From assembly GCA_017535325.1 (NCBI GenBank), contig JAFXUC010000045.1, positions 3,169-67,168 of the forward strand: 64,000 bases of DNA, written 5' to 3'. Source of the DNA: Bacteroidales bacterium. Lineage in GTDB: Bacteria; Bacteroidota; Bacteroidia; Bacteroidales; UBA3824. How positions within the stretch are numbered: position 1 is the stretch's first letter; every line of letters begins with the position of its first letter. This document shows, piece after piece, positions 32,615 through 52,002 of this stretch. Below the pieces are notes generated by a model, which worked only from the letters and a program-made list of their open reading frames with translations, searched no databases and was not told the DNA's origin. Both the position numbers and the translations under genes were made by a program.

Positions 32615-32639
32615 CATAAACTTTTACATTGAAATAAAT

Positions 32640-38328: not shown

Positions 38329-39650
38329 TTTATTTGCAGTTTTTCTAACGATGAAACATTATAAACGTAAATTCTGTTGCCCAAACCGATGTTGTTGATG
38401 TTCATATTTACCGCCGATTCGGAAGAAATTCTTGACATGAAGACATCGTAGCCGCCGTTGCCGTCTTTGAAACAAGCGTAACATGCTATTCCGTCATCAT
38501 AGTCAAGGCGCACATATTTTTGTATTGTGCCGTCAAGTGATACCACCGACAAAACGCCCGTCATGCTGCCCACCATTTTTAGGAGTGCCGACATTGTGGT
38601 GATTGACGACGCGCCGCTGACTTCGATACCGGCAAAATAGATTTCGTTGTCTATTTTCATGGCGTTTGAAAAAAAGGCGTCGGTCGTGGGGACGCGGATA
38701 TATTCGCTGCCGTTTTCGTCCAAAACCAAAGCGCATGTGCCGGTGTTGTCAACGGCTGAGATGTAGGCGTATTTGCTGTCAGGCGCAAAAATGTACGGGG
38801 AATAGTCTATCGCCGAACTGTTGATTTGCTGTCCGTCAAGCGAGAAAATTTTCAAAAAATAATATCCGTCGGCGTTGGTGTAGTAGATAAAAATATTGTT
38901 GTTTATCGAGCAGGTTTCTACGATGCTGATAGTTTCATCAAACGCCAAATCCGTTTCGTGTTCTGTTTTGCCTTCATTGTTTATGTATCTTAACCTCAAA
39001 TCGTAAGAGGTGTTTTGCTGCATCATTCCTTGGTTCGGCACTTGAAATATCATAGCGTAACCGCCGTTGTCCAAGGGAGTTCCGTTGACGGGGATTTTGC
39101 TGACGGAATTGTTTGCTCCGCCGCCCATTCCGCCTCCTCCGCCGTTCATCATATTGACGGTGCTGTCGAGTTGAAAAAGTTTTTGTCCGTCTTTGTCAAA
39201 TTTTACGACAGCGTAATATGTGCGTCCGAAATTGTTTGAGGAGTAAAATTCAAAATAAAACTCGTCGTTGGCGTTTTTGCGGACTGTACCGGCAGAGACG
39301 TCAACTTTTGTCTGCATTTCTGCGGCAGACTGTTTTGAGATGTCTTCTCGGTTTTTGTCTCCGGGGTTGTCTCCGTTATTGTTTACGGGGTTGCGCACAG
39401 ACTCGTTCCAAGAAAGCGCAAAAGTTGTTTTGGTGATTTCGGCGTTGCGGTCTATTTTTACGAAATTGTAGTTCAGCGTGTCGTGTTCGGAGGTGATGGT
39501 GATTATCGAACCGTCAGAGCACGCAACGGGAAAAAACATCGGCGAAACCTCAACCGATTTTACCGGCGAAGCCTCGTAATCCGAAAAAACTGTTTCGTTT
39601 TCGCACGAAAACAAAAACAGAAGTACTGATATGAATAATGCCTTTTTCAT
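38325..39650 (-). CDS. hypothetical lipoprotein (cassette copy 2)
   Basis: Lipobox LLFLFSC, beta-rich, internal Gly run (NGGGGGMGGG). C-terminus YVYNVSSLEKLQIN resembles that of the 45156 paralog. Confidence 0.6.
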   Translation of the reverse strand: MKKALFISVLLFLFSCENETVFSDYEASPVKSVEVSPMFFPVACSDGSIITITSEHDTLNYNFVKIDRNAEITKTTFALSWNESVRNPVNNNGDNPGDKNREDISKQSAAEMQTKVDVSAGTVRKNANDEFYFEFYSSNNFGRTYYAVVKFDKDGQKLFQLDSTVNMMNGGGGGMGGGANNSVSKIPVNGTPLDNGGYAMIFQVPNQGMMQQNTSYDLRLRYINNEGKTEHETDLAFDETISIVETCSINNNIFIYYTNADGYYFLKIFSLDGQQINSSAIDYSPYIFAPDSKYAYISAVDNTGTCALVLDENGSEYIRVPTTDAFFSNAMKIDNEIYFAGIEVSGASSITTMSALLKMVGSMTGVLSVVSLDGTIQKYVRLDYDDGIACYACFKDGNGGYDVFMSRISSESAVNMNINNIGLGNRIYVYNVSSLEKLQIN

Positions 39651-39664: not shown

Positions 39665-40735
39665 TTAATAACCGTAACCGTATTTGGCTATTATGCCGTA
39701 GCCAAAATTTATTTTAACGCCCACACAGATATTTGTAAAACTGAAACTTATCGCATCCGGTACAAACAACTTGTTGTAAACCAGATTGTTGTCAGAATAA
39801 TTGTATTCAGGATTGTTGTGCGGTTTCAGCATTGCGGTTTTGGTAAAATCCGCGAAAACGGATATGCGGTTGTAATTTCTGCTGATTCTAATCCGCGAAC
39901 TTATTGCGCCGTTTATGCGGTTTTTGGTTTTTAAGTCAATGCTGCTTTTTATGAAGTTGTTTTGCTGCGTGTTGATTGCGTTGTATGCCTCGTAGTCCGC
40001 TTTCATGATAAAGTTGAGTTCGCCGCCCAAGAAAATTTCGGGAGTCCATTTGCCGAGGTCGAAAGCGTAACCGACATAGAGCGGAATTGCGCCAAAATGC
40101 ACCGATTCTTTGTAAACAAAATTGTAGTCGACATTCATGAGCCCTGTTTCCCCGTTTTTTGACAGCGTCCTTGAATATTGCGCAAAACGGTATTTTATGC
40201 CGGTTAACACGGAAAGCGTTTTTATCGGACGGTATTGCAGCGAAAAGTCAAACGTATAGCCGATAATATCCTCGTAGGAGGGTTCGTTTTCTTTGTTTTC
40301 GCCGACAACATGGACGGTGTCAACTGAGATTTTCGGAGCGCAGATTCCCGCCGAAAAGCCGACAGAAAACTTCGGGTATGCATGATAATTCAAAAATATT
40401 TCCTTAAAAGGCAGCGGGTCTTCTGTTACGGTTTCGTAAAACGGATTTTTTGTGACAAACGTTCTTACAAGCGAATCCGCTTCTGACTCAAATCCCGACT
40501 CCCTTAAAACCGACGAATAATATTTCAGATATTCAGAATAGTTTTCAGAACTGAGTTTGCCGTTTTGACGGATTTGTTCGGCGGTTTTGCGCGCGTCGAA
40601 GTATTTGCCGGCATTGTAAAATCTTTTTAAGTCAAAAAGCAACATTCCGGCAGTGTCGGTTTGTGCCTTTGCGTTTAAAGCACAAACCGAAGTAACAACA
40701 GTCAAGATTAATATTTTCAATGTTTTATATCCCAT
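39665..40735 (-). CDS. secreted protein with helical N-domain and beta-barrel-like C-domain ending KYGYGY (cassette copy 2)
   Basis: Signal peptide ...SVCALNAKAQ, an N-terminal region of about 100 aa that looks helical or TPR-like, then alternating beta pattern and an aromatic C-terminus. An alternative ATG at 40750 would overlap the NTPase stop. Confidence 0.55.
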   Translation of the reverse strand: MGYKTLKILILTVVTSVCALNAKAQTDTAGMLLFDLKRFYNAGKYFDARKTAEQIRQNGKLSSENYSEYLKYYSSVLRESGFESEADSLVRTFVTKNPFYETVTEDPLPFKEIFLNYHAYPKFSVGFSAGICAPKISVDTVHVVGENKENEPSYEDIIGYTFDFSLQYRPIKTLSVLTGIKYRFAQYSRTLSKNGETGLMNVDYNFVYKESVHFGAIPLYVGYAFDLGKWTPEIFLGGELNFIMKADYEAYNAINTQQNNFIKSSIDLKTKNRINGAISSRIRISRNYNRISVFADFTKTAMLKPHNNPEYNYSDNNLVYNKLFVPDAISFSFTNICVGVKINFGYGIIAKYGYGY

Positions 40736-40736
40736 A

Positions 40737-43700
40737 TCAAAAATCATCAATATTAGAAAACTCTTTGCCTAAAATCAGTTCTTTTTCTGCCGGTGTCAGC
40801 GGCTTAGGATGCATTTCTGAAAGTATTGCGGCATATTTGTTAATGTCGGTATACCAAAAGCGCACCTGATTGTCTTCTGTCAGAGCGAAAACCGTGCCTA
40901 AGGAATTGAAAGCCGCCGATTTTACCTTGCCTTTGAGACTGTGCTCTTCTATGCTGACGATTTTGCCGTTTTTGATGTCGGCGGTGTTGATAAGCGCAAT
41001 TCTCTTGTCCGCGCTTGCCACGGCAAGAAAACCCGTTTTGGAATCGTAGCACATTTTTTCTATTTGGACGTGTCCTCCGGTGCGGCTTGCCACAACAAGG
41101 TCGGTTGTCATATTCAAAAATTTTACGTTGCCGTCGGCAAAAGAGACCGCCAAAAGGTTTTTGTCGGGAATTGCCTCCAACGCAAAACCGAAATTCTGAC
41201 CTTCTTTTTCAATGAGGATTTTTTTCTCGCCGGTTTTATAATTCCATTTCAAAAGTCTGCCGTTGTGCTGCAAAATGTAGATGCCGTTGTTTGTGGGATA
41301 AATTCCGGTTATTTTGTTTCCGAAATTCGCCTCGGTTATCGGTTTGTCCTTTGGTCTGGTCGGTATGGTGATGATAATCCGTCCGTCCGTAAAACCCAAA
41401 ATAAGAAGCAAATTGTCAGGCAGCATTACCGCCTGAGACAGATAGCCTTTTTGCTTTTCAAGATTGAATACGGTTCCCGATTCTATGTCAACAAAAAACA
41501 AATTTCGGTCTTTTGTTGACAAGACCGCCGTAAACCCGGAAGTAAACAGTGCGCGTTCAACAAGCGTTTTCCCTTCAAAGGCTTTTATGGATTTTGTGTT
41601 TTTTGCCTTGTTTTCCTTTAAGTCGTAAACATTTACAGTGCCGTCTTCGCTTACGATTTCTATTTTGTCGGAAGCGTTTATGCGGAAGGCGGACATTCTT
41701 TCGGGAAGTTTGCTGAGGGTATTTTTAAAAGGTGTCTGCTCAACGGCGTAAAGCATTGCGTCATAAAGGATTGCGTCGTTTTGCTTGTCCTTGTTGGTTT
41801 CGTTCATTTTATATGCCGCCCACGCGAGTTTGATATTGAGGTCCTTGTCCTCGTACTGGTTTTTGGCGTTCATGGCAAGCATGTTGCAAAGAGTTATGTT
41901 ATAAAGCCGTGCGGCTGAATCGCTCGCAATTTTTGCTTTCATTTCCTCCTCTTTGGCTTTTTGCTCTTCCTCCTGGGCTTTTTTGCGCTGTTCTTCGGCG
42001 ATGGTAAGATTTTTTTCCGCCTCCAAACGGCTGGCATTTGCAAAGGCAAAGGCAGTGTTGGCGCGGTTCAAAGCCTCCTGCGCGGCAAGTTTGGCTTTAC
42101 GGGCTTCTTCCGCCTCGCGCTGTGCGTTGCTTTTTTCCACCTGCGCCTGAATGTTGGCCTGGTCGGCAATGCCGCGCTGCTGTTCGGCGAGTTCTCTTTG
42201 ACGCTCGGTCGCGATTTTCTGCTTTTCGGCACGGTCTCTTTCTTCGTTTGCAGAGGATTTTTCCATCAACGCCCACGAGGTAAAACCTGCCATTGTCAGC
42301 AGGAAAAATGCGATTGCGACAAAAATAACTTTCATGCGGCGTTTTCTTGCCTGTTCTTTTTCCAAAAGCGCGTTGTGGCTTTCCTCCAAATAGTCGGTAC
42401 AGTCTTCAAAATGCGCAACAGCCTTTTTGCGTTTTTCCTGTTCCGAAATTTTGCTTGTATCATAACGCGCTATCCAATAAGGATTTGGACGTGATTTGTT
42501 GTACCAGTCATTGAAGTAGTTGTAAGAGCCGCTTGTCAGAAGAAACTCCGGACTTTTATCTTGGGAGAGCCAGCGCGAGACTTGCGAGTTGAAGTCGTGA
42601 TAATCCTTTGCGTTGCTTTCCATTTGTGCTCCCCACTGAGCGAACATTTTCCAGTTACGGATAAGAGCCTCATGCGTGATGTCCAACACCGTGTCGCCGC
42701 TGAGATATTGCGTTTCAAGTTCTCCGTCCTCGATAAAGGGCCGCAAAAGCGTGTTGTCAGGACTGCGGAAAATATTCAAAACGCCGCAGACCGTGGCGTT
42801 TGTGATGTTTTCTTTTCCGATGATGCCCGTGATTTCGTCTACGGTGCAGCGGTTTCTTACCGGACGGTTGTTGTCTATTTTGACGAGCGACTTAAATGCC
42901 GCCTCGATGATTTCCTTGCTTTCCTCATTCGTGATTGATTTTTCAGCCCAAGGAGCGTTTTTTTGAAAATAATCGAAAGCCGATTCGTAGAGAATACCGG
43001 CATGGGCGTTCAAAACGTTGTTCAAATCGGGCTTTTCAAAATATTTTTTTTCGTAGTCGGGGCGCATGGCAAACCACTTGTCGAACTCTTTTCTTTCGCC
43101 GCCCGACAAAACCTCTTTTGAAATGCCGGCAATTTTTGCCAAATGTATCAAATCCAACTCTTTCTGACCGTTGTCAGCCATTTTCCAAAGAAGATGGAGC
43201 GCGTGCTGCAAAACCGGCAACTGGTCAAAACCGTTGTTAAGGTTGTTGACAATCACTTCTCTCAGACGGTCGGAAACTTTTCCGCCGGCAAGCGCGGCAG
43301 GCTCTTCGATAACCTGGCAGATTTCGGTGCGTTTTAACTGCGGCACAAAAAACTGCGAATATGCGATAAATTCGGGAAGGTTTTTAAAAACCGTACATTG
43401 CGAAATAAAGTCGCTGCGCATCGTAAAGATGACGTAGACGGGAAGGTTTTCCGTTACGGCAATTCTGACGGTTTCAAGCAAAAGATTTATAGCCGTGTAA
43501 CTTTCTTCGCTCGGCTCTCCGTCATTAAAATTGTCAGAATTTGTAAAAACTTCCTCAAACTGGTCGGCGATTATCAGCAGGTTTTTGCCCTGATTGGCAT
43601 CTTCGGCATAAAATCCGTGTCTTTTATAAAGGTCAACGACCGACGAAAAACCGTTGTCAAGTTCTGATAAAAAGTCAGAATAATCAGCATTCATTTGCGT

Positions 43701-43988
43701 TGCCAACGCTTCTGCGAGTGATGCTAACGGGTTTCGTTGCGGCTTGAAGTCGGCAATAATCCAAGAATTGAAATCGGCTTTGAAAAATCCGGCACGTATA
43801 TACGGCACAACTCCGGCATAAACCATTGACGACTTTCCGTCGCCGGACGCGCCGGTTATAAACGCCATTTTGTTTTCTTCCAAGAGTTTTACAATCTGGC
43901 GTATATGCAAATCCCGCCCTTTGAAGAAGATTGACTCTTCCTCAGTAAAAGGTCTTAAACCGGGATATGGACAAATGCCTCGTTTCAT
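40737..43988 (-). CDS. STAND-like P-loop NTPase with TM helix, coiled coil and C-terminal WD40-like beta-propeller (cassette copy 2)
   Basis: CPYPGLRPFTEEESIFFKGRD...AFITGASGDGKSSMVYAGVVPYI (Walker A), LLIIADQFEEVFT (Walker B). TM helix VIFVAIAFFLLTMAGFTSWAL preceded by RKRRMK. About 130 aa rich in A/E/K/Q. Blades such as LAVSFADGNVKFLN, LAVASADKRIALIN and FALTEDNQVRFW. Confidence 0.8.
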   Translation of the reverse strand: MKRGICPYPGLRPFTEEESIFFKGRDLHIRQIVKLLEENKMAFITGASGDGKSSMVYAGVVPYIRAGFFKADFNSWIIADFKPQRNPLASLAEALATQMNADYSDFLSELDNGFSSVVDLYKRHGFYAEDANQGKNLLIIADQFEEVFTNSDNFNDGEPSEESYTAINLLLETVRIAVTENLPVYVIFTMRSDFISQCTVFKNLPEFIAYSQFFVPQLKRTEICQVIEEPAALAGGKVSDRLREVIVNNLNNGFDQLPVLQHALHLLWKMADNGQKELDLIHLAKIAGISKEVLSGGERKEFDKWFAMRPDYEKKYFEKPDLNNVLNAHAGILYESAFDYFQKNAPWAEKSITNEESKEIIEAAFKSLVKIDNNRPVRNRCTVDEITGIIGKENITNATVCGVLNIFRSPDNTLLRPFIEDGELETQYLSGDTVLDITHEALIRNWKMFAQWGAQMESNAKDYHDFNSQVSRWLSQDKSPEFLLTSGSYNYFNDWYNKSRPNPYWIARYDTSKISEQEKRKKAVAHFEDCTDYLEESHNALLEKEQARKRRMKVIFVAIAFFLLTMAGFTSWALMEKSSANEERDRAEKQKIATERQRELAEQQRGIADQANIQAQVEKSNAQREAEEARKAKLAAQEALNRANTAFAFANASRLEAEKNLTIAEEQRKKAQEEEQKAKEEEMKAKIASDSAARLYNITLCNMLAMNAKNQYEDKDLNIKLAWAAYKMNETNKDKQNDAILYDAMLYAVEQTPFKNTLSKLPERMSAFRINASDKIEIVSEDGTVNVYDLKENKAKNTKSIKAFEGKTLVERALFTSGFTAVLSTKDRNLFFVDIESGTVFNLEKQKGYLSQAVMLPDNLLLILGFTDGRIIITIPTRPKDKPITEANFGNKITGIYPTNNGIYILQHNGRLLKWNYKTGEKKILIEKEGQNFGFALEAIPDKNLLAVSFADGNVKFLNMTTDLVVASRTGGHVQIEKMCYDSKTGFLAVASADKRIALINTADIKNGKIVSIEEHSLKGKVKSAAFNSLGTVFALTEDNQVRFWYTDINKYAAILSEMHPKPLTPAEKELILGKEFSNIDDF

Positions 43989-43992: not shown

Positions 43993-45159
43993 TTATTTTA
44001 TCTGATACCCGCCGACAAGTACGTCATCGAGTTGCGGCATTGTACCGCGCCACTTAGTTAAAAAACTGCTTAACCTTTCGGATTGCAACTTGCCCGGAAG
44101 TGCTGAAACCGATGTCAGCAACTCCCTGAATTTTTTGTACGTTAATTTGCGGTTTCCGCCGCCGAACTGGTCTGAATAGCCGTCAGAGAACATATAAATC
44201 CAGTCGCCGGACTGGACATCTGCTTCCGCAGTTTCAAACGGACGCACAAAAACATACGAACCTATCGGATTTTTTACAGGTTTATATTCCGTTAATTCGC
44301 CGTTGCGGATTAAGTACATGGGATTGTTGGCACCCGCAAAGCGCAGTTTGTTGGTTTCTAAATTCAGAACGCAAAACGCCATGTCCATACCGTCGTCCTG
44401 CTTGCCGAAAGTGTTGTCCTGACTCAGTGCCCGTATAATGTCAGCCCGCAACTTTTCCAAAACTTCGCTCGGCTGGGTGTTTTCGTCCAAGTCTTTGCAA
44501 ATCTCGTTCAAAAACGTTATGCCCAAAAGACTCATAAACGCGCCCGGAACACCGTGTCCCGTACAGTCGGCAACCGTAAACGCCACTATGTCGCCCTGAC
44601 GTTTCATCCAGTAAAAGTCGCCCGAAACTATGTCCCTCGGACGCCAAAAAAGAAAGAAATCCGCAAAACTGAGTTTCAAAATCATTTTCGGAGGCAAAAC
44701 CGCCAACTGAATCCGGCGTGCATAACTTATACTGTCTGTTACCGAATGGTGCTTTTCCTCAATGTCGTTTTTCAAAATTTCGATATGCTCCTTCTCTTTT
44801 TGAACCGCCAACGACATTTCCCAAAGTTTTTTGTTGCGCTCGGTGATTTCGCTTTTTTCTATTTCAAGTTTTTGCTGTTCGAGAATGATTCTTTCTGCGG
44901 TTTTAAAGACCTCGTCCGCCGAAATATTGTCGTTGTCAGGCAGAATTTTGGGCTGATTAGCCGGCTCGTTTTTAAGATTTTCGTAAAGCGTTTTATAACG
45001 CAGAACCTCGTCCGAGGAAAAACGGATCTGACGTTTCAAATCCTTGTTTGCCTCGAATACAGCCGTTCTTGCCGCTCTGCGCCGCGTTAAAAAGAAATAA
45101 ACCGCCGCCAAAACCGCCAAAACAAGCAAAATTATAAGTATATAGTCTAATGTTGTCAA
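43993..45159 (-). CDS. membrane-anchored PP2C/SpoIIE-family protein phosphatase (cassette copy 1)
   Basis: Same architecture and motifs as 37165-38328, and the same TTGA start/stop overlap with the upstream lipoprotein gene. Confidence 0.85.
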   Translation of the reverse strand: MTTLDYILIILLVLAVLAAVYFFLTRRRAARTAVFEANKDLKRQIRFSSDEVLRYKTLYENLKNEPANQPKILPDNDNISADEVFKTAERIILEQQKLEIEKSEITERNKKLWEMSLAVQKEKEHIEILKNDIEEKHHSVTDSISYARRIQLAVLPPKMILKLSFADFFLFWRPRDIVSGDFYWMKRQGDIVAFTVADCTGHGVPGAFMSLLGITFLNEICKDLDENTQPSEVLEKLRADIIRALSQDNTFGKQDDGMDMAFCVLNLETNKLRFAGANNPMYLIRNGELTEYKPVKNPIGSYVFVRPFETAEADVQSGDWIYMFSDGYSDQFGGGNRKLTYKKFRELLTSVSALPGKLQSERLSSFLTKWRGTMPQLDDVLVGGYQIK

Positions 45160-46496
45160 AGTTCAAGTTTTTTTAAGTCGTCGGTCTGATAAATGTGAAA
45201 TTTATTAGACCAGACATCAGAAGCCGTGTTTCCGGTTACGTCCTCGGGACGCAACTCCTTATAATAAACAGTATAAATGCCGTTTTCGTACCAAACACCG
45301 TGTATTGCAGTTGAGTTCTGTCCGCGCATATTAAACAACTCGCCGTCCTTGATTATAAAACCGTCGCACTGTTCGGCGGTGTATATGTATTCAGCAGAGT
45401 ATGACCCTGTATATTTTTTCTTGCAATAACCGTACAAAAATTCACTGCCGCCACATTCAGTTCCGCCAAGGATGTAATAAGTAGAATCCGTGCCTTGAAT
45501 CGGTTTTATTTCACTCTCAGGGTAGACAAGTCTCTCGTAACTGTATGTTCCCGTAACAGAAACTACCGAAGAGCCGTTCTCGTTGACTTCTATTGTGTCT
45601 GTATTGGTTTTCAGATGCAGCATTACGGTTGCGAGACCGGTATATACCGCCTTTGAACTAACGTAGTCGTCAGCCTCGGTGCCATACTGCTCTGTTTTGC
45701 CCTCTGTAGAAACTGCTATCGTACTGCGTGTTCCTTTGTCGTTGTTGAAGTCGATAAAAACCATATTGCCGCTCGAATATGCACGGAAAACGTAGCCTTC
45801 GTTGTTGATTTCTGCCGGACATTTGTTTTCAATACTGCCGTCAGGGGCAAGAGTCATGATTTCCCATTCGTCGGGTGTCACTTCGCCTGTGTACCAGTCA
45901 TTCTTACCCTCTTTGAAAAACAAAACCGCAAAACGTCCGCCGCTGAGAGGCGCACCGAATTTAGGAGCGAGAGACCCGTTTCCGCTGTAATAGTCACCCG
46001 TGTTGTATGCCGCGCAGTGTTTGTAGATGACGTTGCAGTCTTTGTCGAACCTTATGACGCAGAGTTCCGAGATTCCGGCGTGATTGCGCGACGACCCTAT
46101 TCCGAAACTGAAAAAACCGCCGTCGTCGGATTTGTAAATGTCCTGTACGCTTATATAATGGCGGAGGTCGCCTTTTACCTCGTCAAAATTGTCTATGTTG
46201 CCGTTAATCCATTCGGGTTCTATGTGGACGAGTTCCTTTGTACCGTTTTGATTTATTATCACAAGGCGGGAATCCGAGGATTCTTCATGCCAGCCCGTTT
46301 GTCCGTATTCAAAGCCGATTAGACGTCCGTTTATGACCACCGGGTATACGTTGTTGTCAAGTTGGACGGTTTTTACAGGCTGAGTATTGCTGAGCGTGTC
46401 AACAAACACTCCGCCGTCCATAAGTATGCCGCCGTCCTTGCAGCCGGAAATCAAAATCAAAGCCGATAATATGACAATCAATTTTCTCATAATCAA
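45156..46496 (-). CDS. hypothetical lipoprotein (cassette copy 1)
   Basis: Lipobox ALILISGC, beta-rich, C-terminus HIYQTDDLKKLEL. A distant paralog of 38325-39650. Confidence 0.6.
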   Translation of the reverse strand: MIMRKLIVILSALILISGCKDGGILMDGGVFVDTLSNTQPVKTVQLDNNVYPVVINGRLIGFEYGQTGWHEESSDSRLVIINQNGTKELVHIEPEWINGNIDNFDEVKGDLRHYISVQDIYKSDDGGFFSFGIGSSRNHAGISELCVIRFDKDCNVIYKHCAAYNTGDYYSGNGSLAPKFGAPLSGGRFAVLFFKEGKNDWYTGEVTPDEWEIMTLAPDGSIENKCPAEINNEGYVFRAYSSGNMVFIDFNNDKGTRSTIAVSTEGKTEQYGTEADDYVSSKAVYTGLATVMLHLKTNTDTIEVNENGSSVVSVTGTYSYERLVYPESEIKPIQGTDSTYYILGGTECGGSEFLYGYCKKKYTGSYSAEYIYTAEQCDGFIIKDGELFNMRGQNSTAIHGVWYENGIYTVYYKELRPEDVTGNTASDVWSNKFHIYQTDDLKKLEL

Positions 46497-46503: not shown

Positions 46504-47679
46504 TTAATATCCGTACCCGTATTTCGGAAGTGTCCGGTAAAACATATTTATTTTTACCCCGAAACTCAGCGAAATCTGGTTGAGCCGCATAGCGTCGGGT
46601 ACAAACAAGTGGTTTACAGCGAGTTCGGGATTTTTGTATTTGTCTTCTGGTTTTCTGAGTTCCTTGGTTGCAAAACCGTAAGACAGCCCCGCAAAAGCGC
46701 AGAATCTGTGGTACTCGTAGTTGAGTCGTATGCCGCCGTAAACTGTCATAAAACGTGATTTCTGATCTTTGAACCTTCCCTCGCAATAAACAGAGTCAAG
46801 ACGTTTGTTCTCAACGACTTCAGACCGCTTTAAATCTTTTATGCTGTAAGTGCTTTCATAAAAGACAGAGTATTTTATTCCGGCAAAAATCTCCGGTCTT
46901 ACAACGCCGTAAACCGCGGGCGCAATATAGGAGACCTCTGCCGGAATACTGAAAAACTTGTCTTTTTCAGTATAAGAGAAATGTACGTTTTCTCCGGCTT
47001 CAAGTCTTGTGTAAGAAAATTTTGAAAAGGCGAATCCGCCGGAGAGCGACACATTTTCAAACGGGTAAAACACCGCCTGAATTTCAGAAGACGAGGCTTT
47101 GAAATTCGAGTATATGTATTTTCCGTCCTTTGCCCTTACCGTATAGACAGTGTCAAGTACAACTATCGGGTAAACTTTTGATATTGTAACCTTTACGCCG
47201 AAAACAGGACGTGATATAAAATTCTTTTTGAGGCTGACAAAAGCCACAGGGTCGTCGTCTTTAATTTTGTAAAACGGAGCCTGACGGCAAAAAATTTTCA
47301 TCAGAGAGTCGGAGGTTTTTCCGTAGCCCATTTCTTTTAACGAGGCGATAGCGTATTTGTGAAAATCCTCTTTCTGCTGTTTCGATAGTTTTTCCTCATA
47401 TTGTCTTCCCTTGATGACAAAAGCCTTTTCGAGCGATTCCCTGAAACGTCCTGAATTGTAAAGCGTTTTTAAGTTTTCGATTACGATATCGATGTTTTTT
47501 GTGGAGTCGTCGGCGGAAACTGTCTTGAATTTTCCGTTGAAATTCTCCGGCAGAGCCTCCTCCGGCGTTGTCAGATTGTCGAAAAGGGGAATGTAGCCGT
47601 CCGGTTTTGAAGTGTCTTTCTGTGCAAAAACTTCTAAACAGACGGTCAGAAAAAATGCTATGAGAATTGTCTTTTTCAT
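46504..47679 (-). CDS. secreted protein with helical N-domain and beta-barrel-like C-domain ending KYGYGY (cassette copy 1)
   Basis: Signal peptide MKKTILIAFFLTVCLEVFAQ (start set at ATG 47679; the tracked start is 47733). Same C-terminal PKYGYGY as the copy-2 paralog. Confidence 0.55.
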   Translation of the reverse strand: MKKTILIAFFLTVCLEVFAQKDTSKPDGYIPLFDNLTTPEEALPENFNGKFKTVSADDSTKNIDIVIENLKTLYNSGRFRESLEKAFVIKGRQYEEKLSKQQKEDFHKYAIASLKEMGYGKTSDSLMKIFCRQAPFYKIKDDDPVAFVSLKKNFISRPVFGVKVTISKVYPIVVLDTVYTVRAKDGKYIYSNFKASSSEIQAVFYPFENVSLSGGFAFSKFSYTRLEAGENVHFSYTEKDKFFSIPAEVSYIAPAVYGVVRPEIFAGIKYSVFYESTYSIKDLKRSEVVENKRLDSVYCEGRFKDQKSRFMTVYGGIRLNYEYHRFCAFAGLSYGFATKELRKPEDKYKNPELAVNHLFVPDAMRLNQISLSFGVKINMFYRTLPKYGYGY

Positions 47680-48268: not shown

Positions 48269-48735
48269 AAAATGTTTTCTTTCCCGATGAGGACATCACG
48301 GAAAATGACTTGTATTTTGTCTGTTACATGATAGAAAAAGTTTCCCGGCAGATTAAGCAGCCGAATAAATACGCTGTCAACCAAATGGGGTATGACGAAT
48401 TGTCGAAAAAACTCTCTTCGGCAAGTGTTCTTCATTGTCAGAACCCGCTGCAAACCGCCGCAGAATGGATTGAGGAATTTTCATTGGAAAAAGGAACTTT
48501 CGACGTTTCTGCCGTCAATCCTTATTACTGTGAAAAAATTCCGACTGAAACTCAAATGGGAAAAGTTTATAAACGCTTGGTTTTGGATACAATGCCGTTT
48601 GAAGAGGATTATGCTCAGGCTATAATCCGCGTTTACAACAACGAAATTTGCAAAACCATTGACAACTATAATTGCAGTGCGTATTACGAACCCTCACCGT
48701 ATATCGCAAGAAGTTATTTTGCGGGAGGTTTTTGA
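48265..48735 (+). CDS. DUF3791-like protein
   Basis: ATGA-overlapped partner of the DUF3990-like gene. The LYFVCYMIEKVSRQ...VLHCQNP pattern resembles DUF3791, the usual neighbour of DUF3990. Confidence 0.5.
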   Translation: MKNVFFPDEDITENDLYFVCYMIEKVSRQIKQPNKYAVNQMGYDELSKKLSSASVLHCQNPLQTAAEWIEEFSLEKGTFDVSAVNPYYCEKIPTETQMGKVYKRLVLDTMPFEEDYAQAIIRVYNNEICKTIDNYNCSAYYEPSPYIARSYFAGGF

Positions 48736-48747: not shown

Positions 48748-51700
48748 TTACAGTCCTCCTGCGAACTCCCGTCCCAAAACCATTTTCTTTTCATCGCTTG
48801 TAAGAGGTTGCAGGTTAAGAGTCTGCAAGGATTTGGCGTATTGTTTTATGTCGGTGTCCCAATAAAGAATTGAGTTGCGGCCGGTCAGCGCGAAAACCAT
48901 GCCTTTGGAATTGAATCTCAAAGTGTTGGCTCTGCCGCCGCGCAAATTCTGCTCCTCAATAAAATAAGGCTGCGAAACATAGTTGTTGACATCAACAACC
49001 GCAATTCTTTTGTCGCTGCCAGAAAGTGCCAAAAGTCCCGTCCCTGAATCGTAGACCGCATGCTCAAACTTTGAAGGTCCGTAAGTAAACTCGCCAGTAA
49101 GAGTCCCCGTCAGAGTGCTGACAAGGCAGACTAAGCCGTTGCCGTAACAAACCGCCAAAAGATTCTTGTCCCTTAAATCCGCAAGCGCGAAAGCGTTGGG
49201 ATAGCGGTAAGTCTTTTTGAAAACTGTCGTGGTGTCGCCCGTTGCGGAGTTCCATTTAACAAGTGCGCCAGAATGTAACAGAACGTAATAGACATCGGGG
49301 TCGGAAGATGTACACACACCGATGATTTTACGGTTGAAGTTGTAGCCTGTAAACGCGCCTTTTTCAGGAAGTTGCGCATCGTAGACAAAAACGTTTCCGT
49401 TGTCAAAGCCTGTGATAATGCGCCGTCCGTCGTCAGAAAGCGCGCTTGCGTTTATGTATCCAGAGGGTTTCAACTGCGAAACACTGCGGTCTTGAATGTC
49501 CGTCACAAAATTTCTTCCGTCAAGACAACTGCAAAGAAAATATTTGTCGTTTAGAAAATACGCAGAAAGAACCGGTATGGAGTTTTCCGAGGCTTTTATG
49601 CGCATAAATTCCTGCGGACGGTCGCCGGAAATTTTGTAACCCGCAATCTCGCCTTTGTCAGTTGCCGTAAAGAGGCGGTTTTGAGAGTCAACGTAAAAGT
49701 CCGAAATGTCGGCGTCGTTGATTTTCAGTGAGTTGTCGAATCCGTTTTCGTGCATTGCGCAGACCATTGCCGCGTAAATTTCGGGCGTGTTTTCTGTTAT
49801 CTCAAACTCCTTGTTGATAAGCCATGCCGACCACGCAAGACGGAGGTTCATGGACTTGTCTTCGTAACGGTTTTTTGCTTTCATGGCAAGGGCATTTGAG
49901 ACGGCGATATTGTAGAGCCGTGCCGCGCTGTCTGAGGCTTTGTCGGCTTTCAATGTCTGCTCCTCCGCCAAAAGACGGGCTGTTTCCGCCTCTTGACGCG
50001 CTTTTTCCGCAATGTCAAGATTGTGCAGAGCCTGGTCTTTCATGTCGTCGGCAAGGATACGGGCAGCGTTTGCCGATTCGTAGGCGGAGAGAGCCTCAGC
50101 CTTCGCTTCCTGCGCTTTCAGAGCCTCAGCAACCGCTTTTTGACGCTCTGTCTCGGCTCTTTTTTCGGCATCAACGGCACGCTCTTTTTCTTTCTTGTTG
50201 AGAGCAGCCTGATTTTCAGCCTCCAATGTTTTTTCTGCGGCAAGTTTGGATTGTGCCTGCGCCGTGTTTCTTTCTTCTAACGCCCAAATAGCAAAACCCG
50301 TCAGGAAAATTAATGAAACCGTGATTAACGTACCGATTATACGGTTTTTACGTTTCTTTGCTTTTTGTGCCGCTTCAACTGCGCTGCGGCTTTCGGTGAT
50401 AAAATCTTTGCAGTTTTTCGCCAAAACGTCCGCTTTTTTCAGTTTGTCGTTGAGAGGCAGTTTGCTGGTGTCTGATTTTGAAAGCCAAAACGCATTCGGT
50501 CTGACACGCGTGTACCACGTTTCAAAGTATTTAAGGTTGCCCGCCGGAAGAAGGAATCCCTGTTTTCTGCCGTTAGACTCCCAACGTGTCATCTGTATTT
50601 TAAAATCGTGAAAATCCCTCGTATCGTTAGCCTCTTCGGTGTTCCAATGTTCGAGTTTTTTCCAGTTACGGATAAGAGCCTCGTGCGTGATGTCAAGCAC
50701 CGTGTTGCCGCTAAGATATTGGGTTTCAATATCTTCCGTTTCGATGAACGGGCGCAAAAGCGTGTTGTCGGGACTGCGGAAAATATTCAAAACGCCGCAG
50801 ACCGCAGCCGTTGAGACATTCTCCTTGTTGATAATTCCGGTGATTTCGTTGAGCGTGCAACGGTTTCTTACCGGGCGGTTGTTGTCAATTTTGACCAGAG
50901 ATTTAAAAGCCGCCTCAATGATTTCCTTGCTTTCCTCGCTCGTGATTGATTTCTCTGCCCACGGAGCGTTTTTTTGAAAATAATCGTATGCAGATTCGTA
51001 GAGAATACCGGCATGGGCATTCAGAACGTTGTTCAAATCGGGCTTTTCAAAATATTTTTTCTCGTATTCAGGACGCTTGGAAAACCACTCGTCAAAGTCT
51101 TTCCTTTCTTCAACAGAAAGAACGTTCCTTGAAATTCCCGCAATCTTTGCCAAGTGGATAAGATCTAACTCTTTTTGTCCGTTGTCAGCCATTTTCCAGA
51201 GCAAGTTGAGCGCGTGCTGCAAAACCGGCAACTGGTCAAAACCGTTGTTTAAGTTATTGACAATTACTTCCCTGAGACGGTCTGAAACTTTTCCGCCTGC
51301 AAGAGTAGCCGGTTCTTCGATGACCTGACAGATTTCGTTTCGTTTTAGTTGCGGAACAAAAAACTGCGAATAAGCGATAAATTCAGGCAGGTTTTTAAAA
51401 ACTGTACACTGCGAAATAAAGTCGCTTCGCATCGTGAAAATGACGTAGACGGGAAGGTTTTCTGTTACGGAGATTCTGACGGTTTCAAGCAGAAGATTTA
51501 TAGCCGTGTAACTTTCCTCGCTCGGCTGTCCGTCGTTGAAATTGTCAGAATTTGTAAAAACTTCCTCAAACTGGTCGGCAATGATAAGAAGATTTTTTCC
51601 GTTGTTAGGGTCTTTGGCATAAAAGCCGAGTTTTTTATAAAGGTCAACAACCGACGAAAAACCGTTGTCAAGTTCTGCTAAACATTCCTCATAATCGGCA

Positions 51701-52002
51701 TTCATTTGTGTTGCTAACGCTTCTGCGAGTGAGGCTAACGGGTTTCGTTGCGGCTTAAAGTCGGCAATAATCCAAGAATTGAAATCTGCTTTGAAGAATC
51801 CCGCGCGGATATAAGGCACAACACCTGCGTAAACCATTGAAGACTTTCCGTCGCCGGACGCGCCGGTTATGAAAGCCATCTTGTTTTCTTCCAAGAGTTT
51901 AACTATCTGACGTATATGCACGTCCCTTCCCTTGAAGAAGATAGACTCTTCCTCAGAGAACGGTCTCAGACCCGGATATGGACAAATGCCTGACTGCTTC
52001 AT
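48748..52002 (-). CDS. STAND-like P-loop NTPase with TM helix, coiled coil and C-terminal WD40-like beta-propeller (cassette copy 1)
   Basis: Same N-terminal motifs as 40737-43988. TM helix IIGTLITVSLIFLTGFAIWAL preceded by KAKKRKNR, an A/E/K-rich coiled coil and a WD40-like C-terminus (LAVCYGNGLVCLVS, LALSGSDKRIAVVD, FALTGRNSILYW). Confidence 0.8.
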   Translation of the reverse strand: MKQSGICPYPGLRPFSEEESIFFKGRDVHIRQIVKLLEENKMAFITGASGDGKSSMVYAGVVPYIRAGFFKADFNSWIIADFKPQRNPLASLAEALATQMNADYEECLAELDNGFSSVVDLYKKLGFYAKDPNNGKNLLIIADQFEEVFTNSDNFNDGQPSEESYTAINLLLETVRISVTENLPVYVIFTMRSDFISQCTVFKNLPEFIAYSQFFVPQLKRNEICQVIEEPATLAGGKVSDRLREVIVNNLNNGFDQLPVLQHALNLLWKMADNGQKELDLIHLAKIAGISRNVLSVEERKDFDEWFSKRPEYEKKYFEKPDLNNVLNAHAGILYESAYDYFQKNAPWAEKSITSEESKEIIEAAFKSLVKIDNNRPVRNRCTLNEITGIINKENVSTAAVCGVLNIFRSPDNTLLRPFIETEDIETQYLSGNTVLDITHEALIRNWKKLEHWNTEEANDTRDFHDFKIQMTRWESNGRKQGFLLPAGNLKYFETWYTRVRPNAFWLSKSDTSKLPLNDKLKKADVLAKNCKDFITESRSAVEAAQKAKKRKNRIIGTLITVSLIFLTGFAIWALEERNTAQAQSKLAAEKTLEAENQAALNKKEKERAVDAEKRAETERQKAVAEALKAQEAKAEALSAYESANAARILADDMKDQALHNLDIAEKARQEAETARLLAEEQTLKADKASDSAARLYNIAVSNALAMKAKNRYEDKSMNLRLAWSAWLINKEFEITENTPEIYAAMVCAMHENGFDNSLKINDADISDFYVDSQNRLFTATDKGEIAGYKISGDRPQEFMRIKASENSIPVLSAYFLNDKYFLCSCLDGRNFVTDIQDRSVSQLKPSGYINASALSDDGRRIITGFDNGNVFVYDAQLPEKGAFTGYNFNRKIIGVCTSSDPDVYYVLLHSGALVKWNSATGDTTTVFKKTYRYPNAFALADLRDKNLLAVCYGNGLVCLVSTLTGTLTGEFTYGPSKFEHAVYDSGTGLLALSGSDKRIAVVDVNNYVSQPYFIEEQNLRGGRANTLRFNSKGMVFALTGRNSILYWDTDIKQYAKSLQTLNLQPLTSDEKKMVLGREFAGGL

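What the first reader, a model, noticed from the sequence alone, without database searches (positions are those of the whole stretch)
48748..52002. STAND NTPase predicted to place its repeat (sensor) domain outside the cytoplasm
Seen: in both paralogs the single hydrophobic helix is preceded by a basic cluster (KAKKRKNR / ARKRRMK). It is followed by ~130 aa of A/E/K/Q-rich heptad-like sequence and then the WD40-like region. By the positive-inside rule the NTPase is cytoplasmic, and the coiled coil plus propeller are periplasmic. Established knowledge: in characterised STAND proteins (Apaf-1, NLRs, Avs, MalT) the repeat domain senses ligands in the same compartment as the NTPase. Inference: transmembrane coupling between an extracytoplasmic propeller on a long stalk and a STAND switch would be an unusual signalling mechanism. 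The protein also has no N-terminal effector domain, because the P-loop domain starts at residue ~5.
Basis: partly seen in the sequence, partly recalled or inferred. Interest (0 to 1): 0.7.

Follow-up and report, generated by a model that had tools for sequence, protein, structure and literature searches.

The report
Membrane-spanning STAND NTPase with periplasmic propeller
This uncultured rumen Bacteroidales genome carries two copies of an Apaf-1/NLR-like ATPase switch that almost certainly crosses the inner membrane, holding a WD40 propeller on a rigid ~19 nm stalk in the periplasm; it belongs to a large uncharacterised gene cassette that looks like a new way of signalling across the bacterial envelope.

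Summary
ORF 48748-52002(-) encodes an nSTAND1 NTPase (aa 1-446), one hydrophobic segment (aa 555-573) after a basic cluster, a 126-aa coiled coil and a 7-bladed WD40 propeller. The N-in/C-out reading is well supported by computation:
- The segment keeps its position and charge bias in 117/117 homologs and about 110 more distant representatives.
- The stalk has Ala at every 7th residue for ~19 heptads, and its length varies only by whole heptads.
- Two relatives end in a peptidoglycan-binding LysM domain.
- The operon encodes an outer-membrane beta-barrel and a lipoprotein.

The missing effector sits in trans. A membrane-anchored SpoIIE/SiaA-type PP2C follows 52/56 family genes. A DUF4062/TIR-like protein precedes 59/76 of them, or is fused to the N-terminus, but is absent from this window.

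The two window cassettes share ~91% identical NTPase modules and only ~35% identical sensor halves.

Periplasmic sensing by TM-bearing STAND proteins has been predicted in print, but I found no description of this family or cassette. No topology experiment or dedicated predictor was available here. Verdict: a new variant of a known kind; interest 0.65.

The parts
50665..52002 (-). Cassette A STAND protein, aa 1-446: cytoplasmic nSTAND1 NTPase module (P-loop NOD, helical domain and winged helix). Walker A is GASGDGKSS (aa 47-55), Walker B is ADQFEE (aa 142-147), and R192, P231 and H263 are invariant.
   Evidence: Pfam PF20703 at E 6e-67. Invariant columns in the 75-sequence alignment. AF2 pLDDT mostly 80-93. 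Apaf-1 is the top full-length Foldseek hit.
50344..50664 (-). STAND A aa 447-553: cytoplasmic juxtamembrane helical region. It diverges between paralogs (34-38% identical), and the conserved/variable boundary lies at about aa 450.
   Evidence: AF2 helices 447-476, 487-500, 504-510 and 517-578. Sliding identity. Family pairwise identity is 44.7% here against 71.7% for aa 1-446.
50281..50343 (-). STAND A aa 554-574: single transmembrane helix. It is preceded by KAKKRKNR and followed by W573-A574.
   Evidence: KD 2.15, dGapp -1.3, and 6 K/R against 1 K/R in the 10-aa flanks. Conserved in 117/117 homologs and in the representatives.
49903..50280 (-). STAND A aa 575-700: periplasmic alanine-zipper coiled-coil stalk of 18 heptads (126 aa, about 18.7 nm).
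   Evidence: Power at period 3.50 is 52 against a median of 1.6. Ala occupies the 'a' position at 85-100% in most of 19 heptads. Length is 126 aa in 68/75 homologs, and otherwise 119 or 133. There is no Gly or Pro in 53/75. AF2 gives a single helix 582-709.
49723..49902 (-). STAND A aa 701-760: helical cap between stalk and propeller (LAMKAKNxYEDKxLNLRLA). This is the best-conserved periplasmic segment.
   Evidence: Family pairwise identity is 49.5% here against 32-34% for the stalk and propeller. Nearly invariant A706, K708, A709, Y713, D715, N719, L720 and A726. AF2 helices 717-732 and 740-752, pLDDT 75-91.
48853..49722 (-). STAND A aa 761-1050: 7-bladed WD40-type beta-propeller, the predicted periplasmic sensor or docking head.
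   Evidence: AF2 gives 27 strands at pLDDT >90. Foldseek matches Gbeta, RACK1 and WDR61 at TMt 0.7-0.79. PkwA WD40 (5yzv) at E 2.8e-4. Pfam propeller hits are weak.
48748..48852 (-). STAND A aa 1051-1084 plus stop: conserved helical C-terminal tail (PLTxxEKxxILGREF).
   Evidence: Alignment consensus with Y1055, L1067, E1071 and G1077 nearly invariant. AF2 helices 1052-1061 and 1069-1081.
46504..47679 (-). Cassette A outer-membrane protein (391 aa from the internal ATG). It has a signal peptide, a disordered linker, a TPR-like 4-helix periplasmic domain (aa 63-133), a beta-barrel (aa 154-385) and a C-terminal YGYGY.
   Evidence: No Pfam hit. AF2 pLDDT 75. Foldseek matches OmpA, NspA, Ail, OmpW, Pla/OmpT and BcsC. 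A homolog has a weak PF13568 OMP_b-brl_2 hit. Detectable downstream of 39/56 family STAND genes.
45156..46490 (-). Cassette A lipoprotein (about 444 aa, lipobox LISGC). Its fold is unknown and it evolves very fast.
   Evidence: N-terminal sequence, and 24% identity to the cassette B copy. No Pfam hit and no PDB hit. Lipobox ORFs occupy the same slot in other loci.
43993..45159 (-). Cassette A membrane-anchored PP2C phosphatase (388 aa). It has an N-terminal TM (aa 7-25) followed by RRR, which places the body in the cytoplasm, then a coiled coil of about 120 aa and a SpoIIE-type PP2C domain with intact metal-binding motifs (ADCTGHG, DDGMD, FSDG, LDDV).
   Evidence: PF07228 at E 1e-18. KD 3.05 for the TM. 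SiaA PP2C 6k4e at E 1e-30. Found on the same strand downstream of 52/56 family STAND genes.
40737..43988 (-). Cassette B STAND-TM-stalk-WD40 paralog (1083 aa). Its NTPase module is 91% identical to A, and the region after aa 446 is about 35% identical.
39665..40735 (-). Cassette B outer-membrane barrel protein (about 356 aa, signal peptide, C-terminal YGYGY). It is 30% identical to the A copy, and its start overlaps the STAND B stop.
38325..39650 (-). Cassette B lipoprotein (441 aa, lipobox LFSC).
37165..38328 (-). Cassette B TM, coiled coil and SpoIIE PP2C phosphatase (387 aa). It is 62% identical to A overall: 70-82% in the catalytic domain and 38% in the first 100 aa.
   Evidence: PF07228 at E 3e-19. 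Sliding identity.

Best explanation
The protein is a bitopic (N-in/C-out) inner-membrane receptor built on a STAND ATPase switch, and it belongs to a trans-envelope signalling cassette.

Shown:
- The nSTAND1 NTPase (aa 1-446) has intact Walker A, Walker B, sensor and winged-helix residues.
- The stalk is an unbroken 18-heptad alanine-zipper rod. Its length changes only in whole heptads.
- The head is a canonical 7-bladed WD40 propeller.
- The gene is linked to a membrane-anchored SpoIIE/SiaA-class PP2C. It is also linked to an outer-membrane beta-barrel carrying a periplasmic TPR-like domain, and to a lipoprotein.

Inferred:
- The rod of about 19 nm places the cap and propeller just under the outer membrane. 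There they dock on, or monitor, the cognate barrel and lipoprotein, or a ligand those proteins present.
- A change at the propeller travels along the register-locked coiled coil and the TM helix to the cytoplasmic juxtamembrane helices. The most likely means is a change in the association or rotation of neighbouring stalks.
- That change licenses nucleotide-dependent oligomerisation of the NTPase modules beneath the membrane.
- The oligomer then switches the co-anchored PP2C, a dimeric phosphatase class controlled through its N-terminal helices. The PP2C dephosphorylates a phospho-Ser/Thr substrate that is not encoded in the cassette.
- In most family members, but not in this window, the oligomer would also engage a DUF4062/TIR-like partner.

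The two window cassettes keep a near-identical cytoplasmic core and have strongly diverged sensor, barrel and lipoprotein modules. This suggests paralogous receptors with different envelope inputs feeding the same kind of output. The physiological input is not determined; candidates are envelope damage, a surface ligand such as a glycan, or phage attack.
For: - Domain identity.
- TM and charge bias, and their conservation.
- Extracytoplasmic marker: a LysM domain (PF01476, E 2e-13) follows the propeller in P0227 and P0197, and NCBI names a member of the P0197 cluster a LysM peptidoglycan-binding protein.
- Stalk: exact 3.5 periodicity, Ala at 'a', length 126 aa in 68/75 homologs and otherwise +/-7, and almost no Gly or Pro.
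- Partners: the barrel is shown by AF2 and Foldseek. The PP2C is PF07228, has intact motifs and matches SiaA at E 1e-30.
- Linkage: the PP2C follows 52/56 family STAND genes and the barrel 39/56.
- Modular divergence between cassettes: the NTPase module is 91% identical and the PP2C catalytic domain 70-82%. The stalk and propeller are about 35% identical, the barrel 30% and the lipoprotein 24%.
- Within the family, pairwise identity is 72% for the NTPase module and 32-34% for the stalk and propeller.
Against: - No topology predictor or experiment was available, and 9/117 homologs show no N>C charge excess in 12-aa flanks.
- Canonical WD40 propellers are classically cytoplasmic.
- In known STAND proteins the sensor autoinhibits the NOD by direct contact, which a membrane would prevent. 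The coupling mechanism is therefore speculative.
- The stalk core is Ala plus Gln/Ala/Glu, which is weakly hydrophobic. AF2 gives it low confidence as a monomer, so its oligomeric state is unknown.
- 15/56 loci have the PP2C but no detectable barrel gene, so an outer-membrane partner is not obligatory.
- No kinase or phospho-substrate lies in the window or in the neighbourhoods I inspected.
- No physical interaction between any two components has been shown.
Confidence: 0.6

Rival explanations
1. The topology is the same, but the system is an anti-phage or conflict system rather than a physiological signalling pathway. The periplasmic propeller, with the variable outer-membrane barrel and lipoprotein acting as decoys or guardees, detects phage adsorption or injection. 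STAND oligomerisation then fires effectors (the DUF4062/TIR-like partner and the PP2C) that arrest or kill the cell.
For: - nSTAND1 was defined in counter-invader systems (PMC8195603).
- A DUF4062/TIR-like protein is encoded upstream of 59/76 family genes or fused N-terminally.
- Many paralogs occur per genome, at least 5 in one MAG, with conserved cores and fast-diverging sensors, as in immune-receptor repertoires.
- A PADLOC candidate defence pair, PDC-M10, is inserted inside cassette A.
Against: - No cassette protein matches any PADLOC model.
- The cassettes lie among housekeeping genes, and some have conserved synteny with efp or the S12-S7-EF-G operon.
- The window cassettes lack the TIR-like component altogether.
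- SpoIIE/SiaA-class PP2Cs are regulatory enzymes, not known toxins.
- The TIR assignment is weak for the stand-alone proteins (E 0.001-0.1).
Confidence: 0.3
2. The topology is the same, but the periplasmic part is structural rather than sensory. The rod and propeller would act as a fixed-length tether or ruler joining the inner membrane to an outer-membrane barrel-lipoprotein complex. The NTPase would act as an assembly or remodelling ATPase rather than a ligand-gated switch.
For: - The stalk length is quantised and conserved, 126 aa +/- one heptad.
- A dedicated outer-membrane barrel with a periplasmic TPR-like domain is co-encoded.
- The cap region is the best-conserved periplasmic segment, as expected for a docking surface.
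Against: - STAND NTPases are switches, not motors (established knowledge: Leipe et al. 2004).
- The near-universal partner is a signalling phosphatase, not an envelope-biogenesis factor.
- 15/56 loci lack a detectable barrel gene.
- Relatives replace the stalk and propeller with an unrelated helical domain of about 750 aa. That fits exchangeable sensors better than a ruler.
Confidence: 0.12
3. The hydrophobic segment is not a membrane-spanning helix, so the NTPase and the propeller share the cytoplasm as in Apaf-1 and Avs. The segment would be a buried helix, a peripheral helix or an oligomerisation helix.
For: All characterised STAND proteins are soluble. The best full-length structural match is Apaf-1. 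No experimental topology data exist.
Against: - The segment varies in sequence but is always hydrophobic. Median KD is 2.49 and median dGapp is -2.2 in 117 homologs.
- It has a conserved basic N-flank and an aromatic C-flank.
- AF2 gives one continuous helix (aa 517-578) through it, with pLDDT below 50 just after it, which suggests it is not packed into a domain (coordinates not inspected).
- LysM tails occur in relatives.
- The co-encoded partners are secreted proteins.
- The partner PP2C is itself membrane-anchored.
Confidence: 0.05

Closest known systems
Apaf-1 and prokaryotic STAND/NLR-like sensors (Avs, bNACHT, MalT)
   Same: An N-terminal P-loop NOD with helical and winged-helix domains is followed by a C-terminal repeat sensor. 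Apaf-1 is the top full-length structural match and also uses WD40 propellers. The presumed logic is nucleotide-dependent oligomerisation.
   Different: - Here a TM helix and a 126-aa coiled coil separate the NOD from the propeller, so sensor and switch lie in different compartments. Direct sensor-NOD autoinhibition is therefore impossible.
- There is no fused effector. The output is a separate membrane-anchored PP2C.
- There is no PADLOC match.
TM-containing bacterial NACHT proteins (Kibby et al., bioRxiv 10.1101/2022.07.19.500537; Kaur et al. 2020/2021) and the DGR-diversified NACHT-TM-CLec target of Thiohalocapsa (PMC10907252)
   Same: These are STAND NTPases predicted, computationally only, to sense membrane or periplasmic signals.
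   Different: - They belong to the NACHT clade, not nSTAND1.
- Kibby et al. describe their TM-bearing class as typified by multiple TM regions; the Thiohalocapsa target carries a C-terminal CLec/FGS domain.
- Neither paper, in the passages I read, describes a rigid heptad stalk, a periplasmic WD40, or PP2C, barrel and lipoprotein partners.
Receptor Ser/Thr kinases with an extracytoplasmic beta-propeller, e.g. M. tuberculosis PknD (own knowledge: Good et al. 2004 J Mol Biol)
   Same: Both are bitopic N-in/C-out proteins with a cytoplasmic signalling enzyme, a single TM helix and an extracytoplasmic beta-propeller sensor. This shows the topology is feasible.
   Different: The cytoplasmic module there is a Hanks kinase, not a STAND NTPase. 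The propeller is a 6-bladed NHL type, and there is no long coiled-coil stalk.
SiaA / RsbU / SpoIIE PP2C phosphatases of partner-switching pathways
   Same: The cassette's phosphatase matches SiaA-PP2C (6k4e) at E 1e-30 and keeps the metal-binding aspartates. SiaA-PP2C crystallises and elutes as a homodimer formed through its N-terminal helices.
   Different: The input module is not an N-terminal sensor domain in the same polypeptide. It is presumably the neighbouring STAND receptor. No SiaB/SiaC-like or RsbW/STAS partner is encoded nearby.
Periplasm-spanning helical rods: the Lpp alanine zipper and TolA domain II (own knowledge)
   Same: These are Ala-rich, Gly/Pro-free helical rods whose length matches envelope dimensions.
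   Different: Lpp is a 56-residue trimeric outer-membrane lipoprotein, and TolA couples to a proton-motive-force motor. Neither carries a propeller or a cytoplasmic NTPase.

Membership tests
STAND NTPase, nSTAND1 clade (PF20703) | Match to the family profile above the curated threshold | tested here: met
   227.3 bits against a cut-off of 27.1, E 6e-67, aa 8-293 plus a second stretch. The paralog scores 221 bits.
STAND NTPase, nSTAND1 clade (PF20703) | Intact Walker A (GxxGxGKS/T) and Walker B (hhhhD[DEQ]) motifs, a sensor-1 Arg, the GxP motif and a conserved winged-helix His | tested here: met
   GASGDGKSS and ADQFEE are invariant, as are R192, P231 and H263, in 75 aligned homologs. Assigning R192, P231 and H263 to the sensor-1, GxP and WHD motifs is by position and inference.
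STAND NTPase, nSTAND1 clade (PF20703) | NOD-HD-WHD fold similar to solved STAND proteins | tested here: met
   Foldseek top full-length hits are Apaf-1 (3j2t, 3sfz, 3shf, 5juy) at E about 1e-14 to 1e-13. The global TM-score is low (0.23) because the domain arrangement differs.
STAND NTPase, nSTAND1 clade (PF20703) | Nucleotide-dependent oligomerisation switch | not testable with these tools
   This needs biochemistry, for example SEC-MALS or cryo-EM with and without ATP and an ATPase assay.
WD40 beta-propeller | Pfam WD40 repeat or propeller model above the gathering score | tested here: not met
   In protein A, PF00400 scores 16.7 bits against 27 and every propeller model is far below its cut-off. 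In paralog B only ANAPC4_WD40 passes (23.9 against 22.9).
WD40 beta-propeller | Seven four-stranded blades that superpose on solved WD40 propellers | tested here: met
   AF2 gives 27 strands at aa 766-1049 with pLDDT >90. TMt is 0.70-0.79 to Gbeta, RACK1, WDR61 and TLE1.
Bitopic type II (N-in/C-out) inner-membrane protein | Exactly one TM-competent hydrophobic segment and no N-terminal signal peptide | tested here: met
   There is one window with KD >1.7 and dGapp <0. The N-terminus, MKQSGICPYPGLRPF, is polar. The same holds in 117/117 homologs.
Bitopic type II (N-in/C-out) inner-membrane protein | Positive-inside charge bias | tested here: met
   6 against 1 K/R in 10-aa flanks in both paralogs. 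The family median is 5 against 2, with N>C in 108/117.
Bitopic type II (N-in/C-out) inner-membrane protein | Experimental or dedicated-predictor topology (PhoA/LacZ, DeepTMHMM) | not testable with these tools
Known anti-phage defence systems (PADLOC-DB v2: Avs, bNACHT and others) | Profile match of any cassette protein to a defence-system model | tested here: not met
   There were no hits for the STAND protein, barrel or lipoprotein. The PP2C gave only a spurious coiled-coil hit (E 0.009).
SpoIIE/RsbU/SiaA-type PP2C phosphatase (partner protein 43993-45159) | PF07228 above threshold, with metal-binding Asp motifs present | tested here: met
   68.5 bits against a cut-off of 25. The motifs ADCTGHG, DDGMD, FSDG and LDDV are visible in the translation. 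SiaA 6k4e matches at E 1e-30.
Outer-membrane beta-barrel protein (partner protein 46504-47679) | Signal peptide, antiparallel barrel fold and C-terminal aromatic residue | tested here: met
   The signal peptide is MKKTILIAFFLTVCLEVFA|Q. AF2 gives a barrel at aa 154-385. All top Foldseek hits are OM barrels, with TMt 0.5-0.59 to OmpA, NspA, OmpW and Ail. The protein ends in ...KYGYGY. No Pfam model passes threshold, and one homolog has a weak PF13568 hit.
TonB-dependent transducer / anti-sigma / ECF-sigma trans-envelope signalling (FecA-FecR-FecI type) | 22-strand TonB-dependent receptor with an N-terminal signalling domain, a FecR-like anti-sigma factor and an ECF sigma factor | tested here: not met
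   The barrel is small, about 9-10 strands, with no Plug or TonB_dep_Rec hit. No anti-sigma or sigma gene is in the cassette. The resemblance is functional analogy only.

The most novel reading that the evidence does not exclude
This would be the first NLR/Apaf-1-type switch that reads the cell surface instead of the cytoplasm. A register-locked coiled coil of about 19 nm would carry information from a WD40 head, docked on a dedicated outer-membrane barrel-lipoprotein co-receptor, across the periplasm and inner membrane. That signal would drive STAND oligomerisation and a PP2C (plus or minus TIR-like) output. Gut and rumen Bacteroidales would hold expanded, modularly diversifying repertoires of such receptors as an envelope-surveillance system against phage, or for surface ligands.
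Probability: 0.35. Interest if true: 0.85.

Novelty: new variant of a known kind. Interest (0 to 1): 0.65.

Why it matters
STAND/NLR switches are the paradigm of intracellular pattern recognition. In every solved example (Apaf-1, NLRC4, plant resistosomes, Avs, MalT) the sensor repeats touch the NTPase and release it when ligand binds.

A family of thousands of proteins in which a membrane separates sensor and switch would need a different activation principle. Clustering, or rotation transmitted by a rigid coiled coil, are the obvious candidates. Such a family would also extend NLR-like logic to surveillance of the cell surface and periplasm.

The family gives a concrete, genetically compact model of three to five genes. 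Several features are directly testable: heptad-quantised stalk length, exchangeable sensor halves on a near-invariant core, and a dedicated outer-membrane partner.

It also assigns a context to a large set of 'hypothetical proteins' in gut and rumen Bacteroidales. Signal transduction across the envelope in these organisms is otherwise known mainly from SusC-like transducers with anti-sigma factors and from hybrid two-component systems.

Tried and rejected
- NCBIfam gave only a sub-threshold GltJ hit (E 0.15, 11 bits against 450) over the TM and coiled-coil region. I rejected it as compositional.
- PADLOC gave no hit for any cassette protein.
- A PDB sequence search with the whole protein found only the PkwA WD40. 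The lipoprotein and the upstream protein have no PDB sequence relatives.
- Pfam finds nothing for the barrel, the lipoprotein or the 156-aa partner of DUF3990.
- I looked for partner-switching components (STAS, RsbW-like kinase, SiaB/C) in the window and in two annotated neighbourhoods and found none.
- I made four literature searches for this architecture or cassette: STAND+TM+WD40+periplasmic, SpoIIE+Bacteroides, bacterial NLR+TM, and STAND+PP2C+OM. They returned only the general statements cited above.
- I considered a helical-hairpin stalk and rejected it. The heptad phase is coherent over all 126 residues, there is no conserved Gly or Pro, and AF2 gives one helix.
- I considered a re-entrant hairpin or a reversed orientation. 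The hydrophobic stretch is only about 21 aa, there is no N-terminal signal peptide, and an ATPase needs cytoplasmic ATP.
- I tested whether the ~91% identity of the A and B NTPase modules is simple recent duplication. It is not. The sensor halves have clear orthologs in another genome, while the N-modules are 85-93% identical in all pairings. This suggests strong constraint plus some concerted evolution.
- One Pfam call failed on the residue limit and was repeated with fewer proteins.

Full report
**1. Observation.**
The finding's coordinates are an intact 1084-aa ORF on the minus strand (48748..52002). A 1083-aa paralog lies at 40737..43988 and is 58% identical. Both begin directly with the nSTAND1 NTPase domain (PF20703, E 6e-67 and 5e-65, from aa 8 and 7).

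Each has exactly one strongly hydrophobic 19-aa window. In A it is aa 555-573, with Kyte-Doolittle 2.15 and Hessa dGapp -1.3 kcal/mol. The 10 residues before it hold six K/R and the 10 after it hold one.

**2. Is the hydrophobic segment a real membrane anchor?**
- In 117 full-length homologs (42-100% identical) the segment is always present at aa 519-599.
- Its sequence varies but it stays hydrophobic (median KD 2.49, median dGapp -2.2).
- It keeps a basic N-flank (median 5 K/R against 2 in 12-aa flanks; N>C in 108/117), and in the homologs listed it is usually followed by W or WW.
- A full scan of 1.84 billion representative proteins with the cytoplasmic part (aa 1-545) found 33,764 relatives, 3,786 of them at E<=1e-30.
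- Among the best 150, down to about 40% identity, nearly every full-length protein has one such segment about 515-525 aa after Walker A. It lies at the expected place in 115 representatives.
- AlphaFold2 (75-sequence alignment, mean pLDDT 81) runs one continuous helix (aa 517-578) through the segment and gives pLDDT below 50 for residues 573-595. I did not inspect coordinates, so 'not buried' is inferred from this pattern.
- The stretch is about 21 residues, too short for a re-entrant hairpin.

**3. Independent evidence for C-out.**
- (a) Two relatives from Bacteroidia MAGs (P0227, P0197) have the architecture N-extension, nSTAND1, TM, WD40 and then a C-terminal LysM domain (PF01476, E 2e-13). 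NCBI names a member of the P0197 cluster a 'LysM peptidoglycan-binding domain-containing protein'. By established knowledge LysM binds peptidoglycan and is extracytoplasmic in bacteria.
- (b) The downstream genes encode exported proteins. One has a signal peptide and models as a TPR-like helical domain plus a beta-barrel. All its fold matches are outer-membrane barrels: OmpA, NspA, Ail, OmpW, Pla/OmpT, and BcsC, which is also TPR plus barrel. A homolog carries a weak OMP_b-brl_2 hit. The other is a lipoprotein with lipobox LISGC or LFSC.
- (c) The stalk behaves like an envelope-spanning rod, as described next.

**4. The stalk.**
- Across 75 homologs the region aa 574-700 is an unbroken heptad repeat. 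Ala occupies the 'a' position at 85-100% in most of 19 consecutive heptads, and A/Q/E/N occupy the 'd' position.
- Fourier power at period 3.50 is 52 against a median of 1.6, and about 0 at period 3.6. This is a true coiled-coil register, coherent over the whole length, which also excludes a hairpin.
- The stalk is 126 aa in 68/75 homologs. The only variants are 119 aa (2) and 133 aa (5), exactly one heptad either way.
- 53/75 stalks contain no Gly or Pro.
- At about 0.148 nm per residue the rod is about 18.7 nm long. The helical cap and propeller add a few nm. From my own knowledge the inner-to-outer-membrane distance in Gram-negative bacteria is roughly 20-30 nm.
- Quantisation in whole heptads implies that the angular register between the TM helix and the head matters. 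That is what one expects of a signal-transmitting or precisely docking rod.

**5. The head.**
AF2 predicts 27 strands between aa 766 and 1049 at pLDDT >90, which is 7 blades. Foldseek superposes them on Gbeta, RACK1, WDR61 and TLE1 at TMt 0.70-0.79. Sequence profiles are below threshold for protein A, so WD40 membership rests on structure. The helical cap (aa 701-760) is the best-conserved periplasmic part, at 49.5% mean pairwise identity against 32-34% for the stalk and propeller.

**6. The cytoplasmic switch.**
Walker A (GASGDGKSS), Walker B (ADQFEE), R192, P231 and H263 are invariant. The best full-length structural match is Apaf-1. The NTPase module is the slowest-evolving part, at 71.7% mean pairwise identity.

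**7. The cassette.**
Both window paralogs head the same gene string on the minus strand: STAND, OM barrel, lipoprotein, and then a protein with an N-terminal TM, a coiled coil and a SpoIIE-type PP2C (PF07228, E about 1e-19). The PP2C's TM is followed by RRR, so the enzyme faces the cytoplasm. Its metal-binding motifs are intact. Its closest solved relative is the PP2C domain of P. aeruginosa SiaA (6k4e, E 1e-30). SiaA is a dimeric phosphatase that dephosphorylates pThr68 of the partner-switch protein SiaC.

In 77 loci from reference genomes, all Bacteroidales or Bacteroidota and mostly rumen or gut MAGs, 52/56 STAND genes with enough downstream sequence are followed by the PP2C. A barrel protein is detectable in 39/56. 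Gene order varies: barrel first in 26, PP2C first in 11, and PP2C only in 15. Genomes carry several copies, at least 5 loci in one MAG.

**8. A component the window lacks.**
- In 59/76 family genes a gene of about 290-305 aa lies immediately upstream. In the two loci with called genes it overlaps the STAND start codon by 4 nt.
- It is homologous over its full length (BLASTP 2e-37) to the N-terminal extension of about 300 aa fused to the STAND protein in relatives such as P0197.
- That extension matches DUF4062 (E 3e-8).
- 10/25 stand-alone or fused copies hit DUF4062, and a few hit TIR models weakly. A profile search of the PDB gives 'KpSwz TIR/DUF4062' as top hit, but only at E 0.17.
- So the family does have a TIR-like N-terminal module, encoded separately or fused.
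- Neither window cassette has it, there is no tblastn hit anywhere in the 64 kb, and the orthologous tandem array L010 also lacks it. In other tandem arrays only the first cassette has it.

**9. Modular evolution.**

| Component (cassette A vs B) | Amino-acid identity |
|---|---|
| NTPase module | 91% |
| PP2C catalytic domain | 70-82% |
| STAND juxtamembrane region, TM, stalk and propeller | 28-48% |
| First 100 aa of the PP2C | 38% |
| OM barrel | 30% |
| Lipoprotein | 24% |

Third-codon-position identity in conserved residues is 62-79% in the N-module, against roughly 30-65% elsewhere.

Compared with the orthologous pair in L010, the sensor halves show clean orthology (71% and 82%, against about 35% for cross-pairs). 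The N-modules are 85-93% identical in every pairing, and A is closer to B than to its own ortholog. This points to strong constraint plus some concerted evolution of the switch, set against diverging and presumably co-evolving envelope-facing modules.

**10. Mechanism (inferred).**
The protein is a bitopic receptor. The rod places the propeller beneath the outer membrane, where it docks on or monitors the cognate barrel and lipoprotein, or a ligand. A change at the head propagates through the register-locked coiled coil and the TM helix to the juxtamembrane helices. This allows NTPase oligomerisation, which in turn regulates the co-anchored PP2C and, where present, the TIR-like partner.

Because a membrane intervenes, the classical autoinhibition of the NOD by direct sensor contact cannot operate. 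Lateral association or rotation of the stalks is the most economical alternative.

The substrate of the PP2C and the physiological input are unknown. No STAS, RsbW or SiaBC-like genes are nearby.

**11. Signalling or defence?**
- For a conflict role: the nSTAND1 pedigree (PMC8195603), the TIR-like partner, multi-copy repertoires with variable sensors, and a PADLOC candidate defence pair (PDC-M10) inserted inside cassette A.
- Against it: there is no PADLOC match for the cassette. The neighbourhoods are housekeeping and syntenic. The window cassettes lack the TIR-like gene, and the universal partner is a regulatory class of phosphatase.
- I leave this open, at roughly 0.3 for defence.

**12. 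Comparison with the literature.**
nSTAND1 was named by Kaur et al. 2021 (PMC8195603). [quoted passage not shown] Dore et al. predict a periplasmic CLec on one DGR-targeted NACHT protein.

None of these, and none of four further full-text searches, describes a single-pass nSTAND1 with a heptad rod and periplasmic WD40, or its PP2C, barrel, lipoprotein and DUF4062 cassette. Every database name seen for a protein of this architecture is 'hypothetical' or generic: 'WD40 repeat domain-containing protein' for P0058, and 'LysM ...' for the LysM-tailed relative.

I therefore rate it a new variant of a known kind. The compartment-crossing idea exists as a prediction, but this architecture, its size as a family and its partners appear undescribed. 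Nothing about it has been tested experimentally.

**13. Limits.**
- Topology is inferred, not measured.
- Oligomeric state, protein-protein contacts, the lipoprotein fold, the PP2C substrate and the input signal are all unknown.
- The survey of the wider nSTAND1 family is limited to the 150 best representatives.

Noticed in passing
window 47807-48735 (+): A two-gene pair on the opposite strand splits cassette A between the STAND gene and the barrel gene. It consists of a DUF3990 gene (PF13151, E 9e-48) and a 156-aa partner that overlaps it by 4 nt. The pair matches the PADLOC candidate defence system PDC-M10 (A at E 4e-73, B at E 1e-76). Cassette B has no such insertion.
   Followed up: partly
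related loci, e.g. L078:8129-9004 and L080:7444-8361; absent from the window: A conserved gene of about 290-305 aa for a DUF4062/TIR-like two-domain protein lies immediately upstream of most family STAND genes (59/76) and is fused N-terminally in some relatives (P0197, P0201, P0227). Both window cassettes and the orthologous array L010 lack it. In tandem arrays only the first cassette has it.
   Followed up: yes
related loci L026, L029, L031, L035, L045, L047, L056 (e.g. L026:13330-16347): A 'minimal' cassette subtype has the STAND gene and PP2C only. It sits in conserved synteny with an EF-P-like gene and a further protein of about 403-415 aa whose C-terminus (DDITLLGIDF) resembles a second PP2C. 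Neither the EF-P-like gene nor the second PP2C-like protein was checked with profiles.
   Followed up: no
representatives P0143, P0151 and about 30 others: A sister architecture of about 1330 aa keeps the NTPase and the TM helix. It replaces the coiled coil and propeller with an all-helical domain of about 750 aa that has no Pfam match and no A/E/K/Q-rich stalk.
   Followed up: partly
window ~26000-34000 and 24878-25843 (-): A low-GC stretch (30-36% against about 42-46% elsewhere) lies next to a PD-(D/E)XK transposase-like gene (PF12784, E 2e-33). It contains ORFs with no Pfam hit and a TPR protein, and may be a horizontally acquired island.
   Followed up: no
window 53711-55492 (-): A methyl-accepting chemotaxis protein (HAMP plus MCPsignal, E 3e-35) lies in what is otherwise a Bacteroidales-type region with a T9SS cargo, GH95 and a TonB-dependent receptor. 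From my own knowledge, chemotaxis receptors are unusual in this order.
   Followed up: no
window 19803-22114 (+): An RNase R-like gene appears split into two overlapping ORFs: 19803-21335 (RNB, CSD2 and OB domains, 510 aa) and 21158-22114 (318 aa). This may be a frameshift, a pseudogene or an assembly error.
   Followed up: no
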